Below, one piece after another: positions 46,351 through 46,840 of a stretch of DNA of 64,000 nt; positions within the stretch are counted from its first letter, which is position 1; every line of letters begins with the position of its first letter. The notes under the pieces were generated by a model, which saw only the letters and a program-made list of their open reading frames with translations, was not told where the DNA came from and ran no database searches. This stretch comes from the human T2T-CHM13v2.0 reference genome, Homo sapiens, in NCBI RefSeq assembly GCF_009914755.1, contig NC_060929.1, one strand, 5' to 3'. The position numbers were made by a program, and so were the translations under genes.

Positions 46351-46640
46351 ACCTTTCCTAGAACGAGAAATGAAATTCCAGAAAAGAAAACCATGGCCTG
46401 CTTTGCCGCCTTTACCTTAAAATAGATATATTGTAAAGATCTATTGCACTTTAAAGACATTGAAACAACACAGAAGGATAGGAAATGAAGAGTGAAAGTC
46501 TGCTCTTAACTGCACTTGGCCTGGCCTTCTGATGCCAGGAGGCGAACAAGTCTGTAACCTAATGACAGCACCTTCCTTTACTCAGAGACGCTTAGACAGG
46601 AGCATTGACAGATTTACTCAAGATAGAAGAGTATTTATGA

Positions 46641-46840
46641 ATAATTGTTATTCATAAATAATTTTTTACGTTTGTGAGAGATACTTTCATATGCTCTAAG
46701 CAACACACTTTGAAATGCCATTTTAGCATTAGGTGTCTCTTATATTACCTAATGCTAAAATGGCATTTCAAAGTGTGTTGCTTAGAGCATATGAAAGTAT
46801 CTCTCACAAACGTAAAAAATTATTTATGAATAACAATTAT
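46641..46840. repeat. Perfect inverted repeat: 94-bp arms (46641-46734 and 46747-46840) with a 12-nt spacer GTCTCTTATATT
   Basis: Checked block by block; the arms are exact reverse complements. Confidence 0.98.

What the first reader, a model, noticed from the sequence alone, without database searches (positions are those of the whole stretch)
46632..46840. Perfect 200-bp non-transposon palindrome (94-bp arms, 12-nt loop) in PRDM6 intron 2, with a nested fold-back and flanking direct repeat
Seen: 46641-46734 and 46747-46840 are exact reverse complements (no mismatches, about 28% GC), and I recognise no repeat family in them. The left edge carries a second hairpin, tatttatgaataa-ttg-ttattcataaata (46632-46660). 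Its 13-mer recurs as a direct repeat at 46821-46833, 189 bp away. Established: long perfect palindromes with short spacers extrude cruciforms, are fragile, and are often deleted during E. coli cloning; long perfect dsRNA is a substrate for ADAR, Dicer and PKR. Inference: the structure arose by serial template switching and is either very young or kept homogeneous by arm-to-arm conversion. It may be a presence/absence variant collapsing between the 13-bp repeats. Every PRDM6 pre-mRNA, or an antisense transcript, would carry a 94-bp stem, so it is a candidate hairpin-RNA/endo-siRNA source or structural regulatory switch lying between two intragenic CpG islands.
Basis: partly seen in the sequence, partly recalled or inferred. 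Interest (0 to 1): 0.85.

Follow-up and report, generated by a model that had tools for sequence, protein, structure and literature searches.

The report
Perfect 200-bp palindrome in PRDM6 intron
A real, single-copy, perfectly symmetrical 200-base hairpin-forming sequence sits in an intron of the human PRDM6 gene; it looks like a DNA-copying accident, an inverted duplication, not a transposon or a known RNA gene, and nothing here shows that it has a function.

Summary
Positions 46641-46734 and 46747-46840 are exact reverse complements: 94-nt arms, a 12-nt spacer, 27.5% GC. In 30 simulated windows the longest perfect arm was 10-14 nt. The arm has no other copy in the T2T-CHM13 genome, whereas two control repeats gave 3786 and 4494 candidates. 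There is no target-site duplication, no pairing beyond the arms, and no Rfam family at its threshold.

The 13-mer "flanking direct repeat" is not independent evidence. It follows arithmetically from the nested 13-nt hairpin plus the large palindrome.

Best reading (about 0.65): a local inverted duplication made by a strand or template switch during DNA synthesis. This is the "1-4-3-2/3-2-1-4" type known from human-chimp comparisons. Its 94 nt lies near the top of lengths reported for human template-switch events. A second small switch probably built the nested hairpin at the left edge.

Perfect arms alone fit any age up to about 30 My. Dating, polymorphism, RNA editing and small RNAs could not be tested, because no other human or ape assemblies or expression data were on hand. 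Function is unshown and a priori unlikely.

The parts
46641..46734 (.). Left arm of the palindrome (94 nt)
   Evidence: exact reverse complement of 46747-46840; its only genome matches are itself and the other arm.
46735..46746 (.). Asymmetric 12-nt spacer GTCTCTTATATT (hairpin loop)
   Evidence: unpaired in the DNA fold. In the RNA fold one extra G-U pair leaves a 10-nt loop.
46747..46840 (.). Right arm of the palindrome (94 nt)
46632..46660 (.). Nested hairpin at the left edge: 13-nt perfect arms (46632-46644 / 46648-46660) with a 3-nt loop TTG. It straddles the arm boundary at 46641.
   Evidence: Outside a simple tract at 30203-30237 it is one of only two hairpins with arms of 13 nt or more and a spacer of 10 nt or less in the 64-kb window.
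46821..46833 (.). Second copy of the 13-mer TATTTATGAATAA (direct repeat of 46632-46644, 189 bp away). It is a necessary consequence of the nested hairpin plus the palindrome, and a possible slippage substrate for a 189-bp deletion.
   Evidence: (D1); the logic follows from the sequence.
46626..46636 (.). Possible outer remnant of a once longer left arm. GAAGAGTATTT matches the reverse complement of 46851-46861 at 10 of 11 positions (7 perfect: 46626-46632 with 46855-46861).
   Evidence: Marginal: 30 of 1000 random loci score as well with 40-nt flanks, and 139 of 3000 have a 7-nt perfect complement in 30-nt flanks.
46841..46861 (.). Right flank. 14 nt (46841-46854) have no counterpart on the left; then ACTCTTC pairs with 46626-46632.
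   Evidence: No nearby copy of the 14-mer was found; the best was 10 of 14.

Best explanation
This is a local inverted duplication: a mutational product, not a mobile element or a gene.

Proposed origin. During DNA synthesis (replication, or repair synthesis after a break), the growing 3' end left its template near the present spacer. It copied about 94 nt of the adjacent sequence from the complementary or nascent strand in the reverse direction, then returned to the original template. This is the '1-4-3-2 / 3-2-1-4' template-switch class. One arm is therefore ancestral unique intron sequence and the other is its new inverted copy.

A second, small switch at the left edge probably replaced a few bases with an inverted copy of 46652-46659. 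That made the nested 13-nt hairpin and cut off a slightly longer original palindrome.

What is shown: the anatomy, the single-copy status, and the lack of transposon hallmarks. What is inferred: the mechanism, the order of events and the age.

Expected consequences, all inferred:
- A hairpin on single-stranded DNA at replication, giving a risk of deletion between the 13-nt direct repeats.
- Little cruciform extrusion at physiological salt.
- In transcripts that start at PRDM6 exon 1, a 94-bp perfect RNA duplex that ADAR enzymes would probably edit heavily in the nucleus.
- No dedicated function.
For: - Exact 94-nt arms end abruptly. Positions 1 and 2 outside the arms do not pair, and only 10 of 40 outer positions pair, which is chance level.
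- There is no direct repeat of the immediate flanks, so no target-site duplication.
- The arm and the surrounding 1.3 kb are single-copy in the complete genome. Only the two arms hit each other, with 1-2 first-look candidates. Two masked repeats from the same window gave 3786 and 4494 candidates at 84-90% identity. The duplicated material is therefore local unique DNA.
- No match in prokaryote genome contigs or viral contigs or in phages. Plasmids gave only a 36-nt AT-rich chance hit, E = 5e-3.
- Passages read in Loytynoja & Goldman 2017 (PMC5453318): type 1-4-3-2 and its mirror 3-2-1-4 create an inverted repeat and make up 31% of high-confidence human-chimp events.
- Passages read in Loytynoja 2022 (PMC9435742): 872-1121 high-quality events per person in unmasked DNA, mean length 11.56 bp, per-person maximum 97-180 bp, and a longest event in complex sequence of 90 bp in variant databases. 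So 94 nt is rare but within range.
- Passages read in Monttinen et al. 2023 (PMC10710096): a single switch can make perfect pairing for a whole hairpin without a pre-existing repeat, and such hairpins are common in introns.
- Second event: the 8 nt 46633-46640 that interrupt the outer complementarity have a perfect inverted copy at 46652-46659. The 14 nt on the right side have no nearby source.
- A 13-nt hairpin lying exactly on the arm boundary is improbable by chance. There are two such loci in 64 kb, so my rough estimate is about 0.2% for a 60-nt target.
Against: - No outgroup or second human haplotype could be examined. The ancestral state, which arm is the copy, and whether one or two events occurred are all untested.
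- 94 nt is about eight times the mean length of reported template-switch events.
- No microhomology can be read at the switch points, because the event itself erases it. The immediate flanks show none.
- The outer 7-11-nt complementarity that supports the two-event version is only marginal: 3% with 40-nt flanks, 15% with 80-nt flanks and 47% with 150-nt flanks.
- The genome search skips very common words, and its sensitivity to repeat families more than about 20% diverged was not calibrated. Both controls matched at 84-90%. An old, low-copy element homogenised between its arms is therefore not strictly excluded.
- No Dfam or RepeatMasker run was possible.
Confidence: 0.65

Rival explanations
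1. It is an older palindrome (tens of millions of years) whose arms are kept identical by arm-to-arm correction, that is, intrastrand hairpin formation with template-switch or mismatch-repair homogenisation. It is not a recent event.
For: The classic template-switch mechanism converts near-perfect inverted repeats into perfect ones (passages in PMC5453318). The outer flank shows a possible diverged extension, as expected if only the inner part is homogenised. Both CpG sites (46669, 46811) are retained.
Against: Zero differences in 188 bases needs no conversion for ages up to about 10-25 My. The outer complementarity is of marginal significance. No comparative data were available.
Confidence: 0.12
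2. It is a non-autonomous DNA transposon (MITE) or another inserted hairpin element.
For: Terminal inverted repeats are trivially present, and the total size of about 200 bp is MITE-like.
Against: No second copy exists anywhere in the genome, although the same search finds thousands of candidates for the control repeats. There is no target-site duplication. Perfect arms have a probability of 0.02 at 40 My, whereas human DNA transposons are, from recall, older than about 37 My. The stretch is not among the hub's masked stretches, a list that reaches down to 180 bp.
Confidence: 0.04
3. It is an assembly artefact, or a private or cell-line mutation of CHM13, absent from other humans.
For: Only one assembly was seen. 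Palindromes are hard for sequencing and cloning (passages in PMC4057610). Template-switch events are often polymorphic or singletons.
Against: The structure has unique sequence on both sides and an asymmetric spacer. That is unlike read-level fold-back chimeras, which would not survive consensus (general knowledge). A private variant would still be a real inverted duplication, so this rival concerns frequency, not nature.
Confidence: 0.1
4. It is a functional element: a source of hairpin RNA (endo-siRNA, or a miRNA-like or ADAR-edited dsRNA), or a cruciform-forming regulatory switch for PRDM6.
For: It lies in a transcribed intron, on the sense strand of PRDM6, about 280 bp from a CpG-rich stretch. 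The RNA stem is extremely stable. Template-switch hairpins in introns have given rise to miRNA genes (PMC10710096).
Against: Of 21 Rfam matches with E up to 10, none reaches its gathering score. The best is a plant family, MIR4208, at 60.4 bits against 140, and matches fall on both strands as for any hairpin. No miRNA is annotated here in the hub table. A 94-bp perfect stem is not a canonical Drosha substrate, and human somatic Dicer handles long dsRNA poorly (general knowledge). PATRR17-long, of similar size, showed negligible cruciform extrusion at physiological salt (PMC1851657), and this element also has a 12-nt spacer. No expression, editing or small-RNA data were available.
Confidence: 0.05

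Closest known systems
Template-switch mutations (four-point model, type 1-4-3-2 / 3-2-1-4; Loytynoja & Goldman 2017, Loytynoja 2022, Monttinen et al. 2023)
   Same: They make an inverted copy of immediately adjacent unique sequence and give perfect pairing in one step. They leave no target-site duplication, are often intronic, and sometimes occur as adjacent or serial events.
   Different: The mean event length is 11.56 bp, so this 94-nt copy sits at the upper end: per-person maxima are 97-180 bp, and the longest event in complex sequence in variant databases is 90 bp. The ancestral state that defines such an event was not observed here.
PATRR17, the palindromic AT-rich repeat in an intron of NF1 (17q11)
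   Same: It is an intronic, near-perfect palindrome of about 187-190 bp with no homology to other palindromes. It undergoes hairpin-mediated deletions of about 100 bp in E. coli, and its alleles are polymorphic through deletion (abstract and passages of PMC1851657).
   Different: PATRRs are described as having more than 90% AT and no spacer, and are defined by translocation breakpoints (PMC4940405; PMC7999016). This element has 72.5% AT, a 12-nt spacer, its most AT-rich part at the outer ends rather than the centre, and no known rearrangement.
Inverted Alu pairs and other repeat-derived long intramolecular dsRNAs (ADAR substrates)
   Same: Both are intronic inverted repeats that fold into long RNA duplexes. 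[quoted passage not shown]
   Different: This duplex is non-repetitive and perfect. In the dsRNAscan preprint (PMC11838218, passages) non-repetitive predicted dsRNAs are sparse and have a median of 14 contiguous base pairs (30 if edited), against 94 here. The arms are also a third of an Alu in length.
MITE-derived hairpins (for example MADE1-type palindromic elements that gave miRNA genes; recalled, not from a call)
   Same: A short palindromic unit that folds into a hairpin when transcribed.
   Different: Those are multi-copy, carry target-site duplications and are diverged. This element is single-copy, has no target-site duplication and is perfect.

Membership tests
Template-switch mutation product (inverted-repeat-creating type) | The new segment is a reverse-complement copy of sequence lying next to it | tested here: met
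   exact 94-nt inverted copy 12 nt away; no other source in the genome.
Template-switch mutation product (inverted-repeat-creating type) | The ancestral or alternative allele lacks the inverted copy, and the difference is explained by a single switch-and-return | not testable with these tools
   No ape or other human assemblies are held. The Monttinen 2023 spreadsheet and the Walker 2021 files contain no PRDM6 entry. The coordinate prefixes I searched were recalled approximations. PDFs and the file were unreadable.
Template-switch mutation product (inverted-repeat-creating type) | Length within the range reported for human events | tested here: met
   94 nt, against a mean of 11.56 bp, per-person maxima of 97-180 bp and a longest of 318 bp (PMC9435742). 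It is within range but extreme.
PATRR (palindromic AT-rich repeat) | More than 90% AT | tested here: not met
   72.5% AT. Criterion from PMC4940405 and PMC7999016.
PATRR (palindromic AT-rich repeat) | Near-perfect palindrome without a spacer, several hundred bp long | tested here: not met
   The arms are perfect, but there is a 12-nt asymmetric spacer and a total of 200 bp. The size equals only the smallest member, PATRR17 at 187 bp.
PATRR (palindromic AT-rich repeat) | Lies at a translocation breakpoint and shows size polymorphism | not testable with these tools
   No population or cytogenetic data. No paper holds PRDM6 together with 'palindrome' or 'inverted repeat'.
MITE / non-autonomous DNA transposon | Multi-copy family | tested here: not met
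   only self matches. Controls gave 3786 and 4494 candidates. Sensitivity for families more than about 20% diverged was not calibrated.
MITE / non-autonomous DNA transposon | Target-site duplication flanking the terminal inverted repeats | tested here: not met
   Left flank ...ATTTATGA, right flank GAACTTGT...: no duplication of 2-8 nt in register.
MITE / non-autonomous DNA transposon | Match to a curated consensus (Dfam/Repbase) | not testable with these tools
   No repeat library is on hand. The hub's list of masked stretches, which reaches down to 180 bp, does not include this 200-bp stretch.
miRNA / hairpin-RNA gene | Match to a curated RNA family at its gathering score | tested here: not met
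   21 matches with E up to 10, none at threshold. The best is 60.4 bits against a threshold of 140.
miRNA / hairpin-RNA gene | Small RNA products or processing | not testable with these tools
   No small-RNA or RNA-seq data are available.

The most novel reading that the evidence does not exclude
The palindrome is a hominid- or human-specific, possibly still polymorphic, 94-bp perfect hairpin. It is kept perfect by self-correction and matters biologically in one of two ways. It may act as a hyper-edited nuclear dsRNA or small-RNA source in PRDM6-expressing vascular cells. Or it may act as a replication-stalling fragile site whose presence or 189-bp deletion alleles alter PRDM6 expression at a locus linked, from recall, to blood-pressure and cardiac traits.
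Probability: 0.04. Interest if true: 0.7.

Novelty: new member of a known kind. Interest (0 to 1): 0.3.

Why it matters
If it is confirmed in other haplotypes and dated with ape genomes, this would be an unusually long, clean example of a template-switch or fold-back inverted duplication in unique human DNA. It would carry a built-in record of a second small switch at its edge.

It would be useful as a test locus for several things: how long perfect hairpins persist, whether arms self-correct, and whether a 94-bp perfect intronic duplex is edited or processed. It would also serve as a benchmark for assemblers and variant callers, since PCR and E. coli cloning handle palindromes of this size poorly (PMC4057610; PMC1851657).

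It does not open a new category. Palindromes of this size (PATRR17) and hairpins made by template switching are already described.

Tried and rejected
- Repeat family. Genome-wide DNA search with one arm and with 1.3 kb around it found only self matches, plus one 53-nt, 85% hit on another chromosome to the TA/TG-rich stretch 46950-47002. The two positive controls worked.
- Rfam. Only generic sub-threshold hairpin matches.
- Foreign origin, or independent copies in other collections. A 32-nt arm pattern gave 0 hits in prokaryote genome contigs and 0 in viral contigs. Plasmids gave one 36-nt AT-rich hit, E = 5e-3, taken as chance. Phages gave none.
- Extension of the palindrome. None in register. 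An out-of-register 10-of-11 match is marginal.
- Literature. 0 papers for PRDM6 with 'palindrome'. 0 for PRDM6 with 'inverted repeat'. 8 for PRDM6 with 'intron 2', none about this by title or abstract listing. 0 for the 32-mer.
- Supplements. The Monttinen 2023 spreadsheet had no PRDM6, chr5 or 12309 entry; its PDFs are unreadable here. The Walker 2021 files had no PRDM6, 12309 or 12243 entry; those coordinate prefixes came from my recalled approximate GRCh38 and hg19 positions, so this is a weak negative. The Loytynoja 2022 file could not be searched. These unseen files could list this locus.
- Papers not held. The two NF1-palindrome evolution papers (Lewis 2005, Inagaki 2005) are not held, so the evolutionary history of PATRR17 is not cited.
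- Left out. Sampling about 2 Mb of the genome for a base rate of such palindromes: too small to bound a rare class.

Full report
**Observation.** The window sequence and the repeat finder show that 46641-46734 and 46747-46840 are 94-nt arms with 100% complementarity, separated by 12 nt. A script confirmed exact reverse-complement identity, the spacer GTCTCTTATATT (not self-complementary), and 27.5% GC.

Pairing stops abruptly. The first two positions outside the arms do not pair, and only 10 of 40 outer positions pair in register, which is about chance.

In the whole 64-kb window there are 59 perfect inverted repeats with arms of 10 nt or more and a spacer of 100 nt or less. The largest is this one. 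The next are 17 nt, inside a simple tract at 30203-30237, and then 13 nt. In 30 first-order Markov simulations the longest arm was 10-14 nt.

As RNA the region folds at -158.8 kcal/mol, against -44.3 +/- 4.4 for 200 shuffles (z = -26.1). As DNA it folds at -109.4 kcal/mol (z = -26.8).

**Nested hairpin and direct repeat.** The hairpin 46632-46644 / 46648-46660 has 13 perfect pairs and a 3-nt loop. It extends to 21 nt at 86%. The 13-mer at 46821-46833 is not independent. The right half of the small hairpin lies inside the left arm, so its reverse complement must occur in the right arm, and that equals the left half of the small hairpin.

The small hairpin itself is notable. Outside the simple tract at 30203-30237, the window has only two hairpins with arms of 13 nt or more and a spacer of 10 nt or less: this one and 47406-47432. 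One lying exactly on an arm boundary is therefore unlikely by chance (my rough estimate is about 0.2%).

**What it is not.**
- One arm searched against the window's own complete genome (held as G000, 3.12 Gb in 24 contigs) matched only itself and the other arm, with one first-look candidate.
- A 1301-nt query around it matched only itself, its own inverted image, and one 53-nt, 85% hit to the TA/TG-rich stretch 46950-47002.
- As positive controls, two stretches that the hub lists as masked repeats (12808-13005 and 6625-6804) gave 3786 and 4494 first-look candidates. The 40 scored in each case had 84-90% identity.
- The search therefore sees interspersed families of that divergence. Sensitivity to much older families was not calibrated.
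- No target-site duplication flanks the arms.
- Rfam gave 21 matches at E up to 10, and none reached a gathering score. The best was a plant miRNA family at 60.4 bits against 140, and matches fell on both strands, as any long hairpin would give.
- A 32-nt arm pattern is absent from prokaryote genome contigs and viral contigs. Phage records gave nothing, and plasmids gave one 36-nt AT-rich hit at E = 5e-3.

**Most likely origin.** The duplicated material is local unique DNA in inverted orientation with a short asymmetric spacer. This is the outcome of the '1-4-3-2' (mirror '3-2-1-4') template-switch type. [quoted passage not shown]

Passages of Loytynoja 2022 report 872-1121 high-quality events per person in unmasked DNA. 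The mean length is 11.56 bp, per-person maxima are 97-180 bp, and the longest event in complex sequence in variant databases is 90 bp (PMC9435742). A 94-nt copy is thus rare but within the known range.

Monttinen et al. 2023 state that one switch can produce perfect pairing for a whole hairpin without a pre-existing repeat, and that such hairpins are enriched in introns (PMC10710096). Fold-back priming during break repair would give the same product. I cannot tell the two apart.

**A possible second event.** Both folds pair GAAGAGT (46626-46632) with ACTCTTC (46855-46861) outside the arms. A local alignment of the left flank with the reverse complement of the right flank gives 10 of 11 matches (46626-46636 with 46851-46861). 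With 40-nt flanks, 30 of 1000 random loci score as well. With 80-nt flanks it is 149 of 1000, and with 150-nt flanks 473 of 1000. A 7-nt perfect complement in 30-nt flanks occurs at 139 of 3000 random loci. This is suggestive only.

If it is real, the palindrome once reached about 115 nt per arm, and the two sides now differ in one block: 8 nt on the left (46633-46640) against 14 nt on the right (46841-46854). The left 8 nt are a perfect inverted copy of the adjacent 46652-46659. The right 14 nt have no nearby source; the best match is 10 of 14.

That is the footprint expected of a small later template switch on the left side. It would have turned the mini-palindrome ATAA-TTG-TTAT into the 13-nt hairpin.

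**Age.** The arms total 188 bases. I assumed 0.5e-9 substitutions per bp per year, which is general knowledge and does not come from a call.

| Age | Chance of no arm difference |
|---|---|
| 6 My | 0.57 |
| 12 My | 0.32 |
| 25 My | 0.10 |
| 40 My | 0.02 |

The 95% bound is about 32 My. Each arm keeps its CpG (46669, 46811). Perfection therefore does not require a human-specific origin or gene conversion. It does argue against an element as old as human DNA transposons.

**Likely consequences (inferred).** Reviews read in passages state that longer arms, higher identity and shorter spacers raise hairpin-driven instability. [quoted passage not shown]

The closest solved case in size is PATRR17-long (187 bp, NF1 intron). 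It formed cruciforms only weakly at low salt and negligibly at physiological salt. It also suffered same-sized deletions of about 100 bp in E. coli, attributed to slipped mispairing at a hairpin (PMC1851657).

The present element has 72.5% AT rather than more than 90%, carries a spacer, and is most AT-rich at its outer ends (90% AT in 46641-46660 and 46821-46840, against 60-70% for most of the inner bins). I therefore expect even less extrusion. The realistic risks are replication hairpins and a 189-bp slippage deletion between the 13-mers.

In RNA, transcripts from PRDM6 exon 1 would carry a 94-bp perfect duplex. In the dsRNAscan preprint, non-repetitive predicted dsRNAs have a median of 14 contiguous pairs, or 30 if edited (PMC11838218), so this is an outlier and a probable ADAR substrate. 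It is intronic and probably short-lived. The hub's table lists other transcripts with exons at 49177-50221, downstream of the palindrome, so 'every pre-mRNA' is not established.

**Context.** The palindrome lies in intron 2 (hub table). It is about 280 bp downstream of a CpG-rich stretch at 45141-46360 and 1.9 kb upstream of another at 48721-50630.

**In print.** No held paper combines PRDM6 with 'palindrome' or 'inverted repeat'. Of the 8 papers with PRDM6 and 'intron 2', none concerns this by title or abstract listing. The 32-mer occurs in no held paper.

**Verdict.** This is a real, striking, but explicable structure: a new instance of a known kind of mutation product. No evidence of function was found, and the decisive comparative and expression tests remain to be done.

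Noticed in passing
window 47406-47432: A second perfect small palindrome (13-nt arms, 1-nt spacer: TTAATAGTAGCAT-A-ATGCTACTATTAA) lies 566 bp downstream of the large one. Outside a simple tract at 30203-30237, it and the nested hairpin are the only two such hairpins in 64 kb. This may be another template-switch product or a locally raised switch rate.
   Followed up: partly
window 45141-46360: A CpG-rich stretch of 1220 bp (62% GC, 83 CpG) lies inside PRDM6 intron 2, with no exon or functional element in the hub table. It ends about 280 bp upstream of the palindrome and could be an unannotated promoter or a Polycomb-type island.
   Followed up: no
window 51197-51266: Two head-to-tail copies of a 35-nt unit at 97% identity, just downstream of exon 3 (family D14).
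   Followed up: no
window 39584-39655 and 49929-50022: A long (TC)n tract near the PRDM6 first exon and a (GA)-rich tract near the alternative exons are complementary over 40-64 nt at 70-86%, about 10.3 kb apart. These are low-complexity tracts that could form triplex or long-range RNA pairing.
   Followed up: no
window 46950-47003: A TG/TA-rich quasi-palindrome (24-nt arms, 75% complementary). It is the only part of the 1.3-kb neighbourhood with a match elsewhere in the genome: 53 nt at 85% on contig C2.
   Followed up: no
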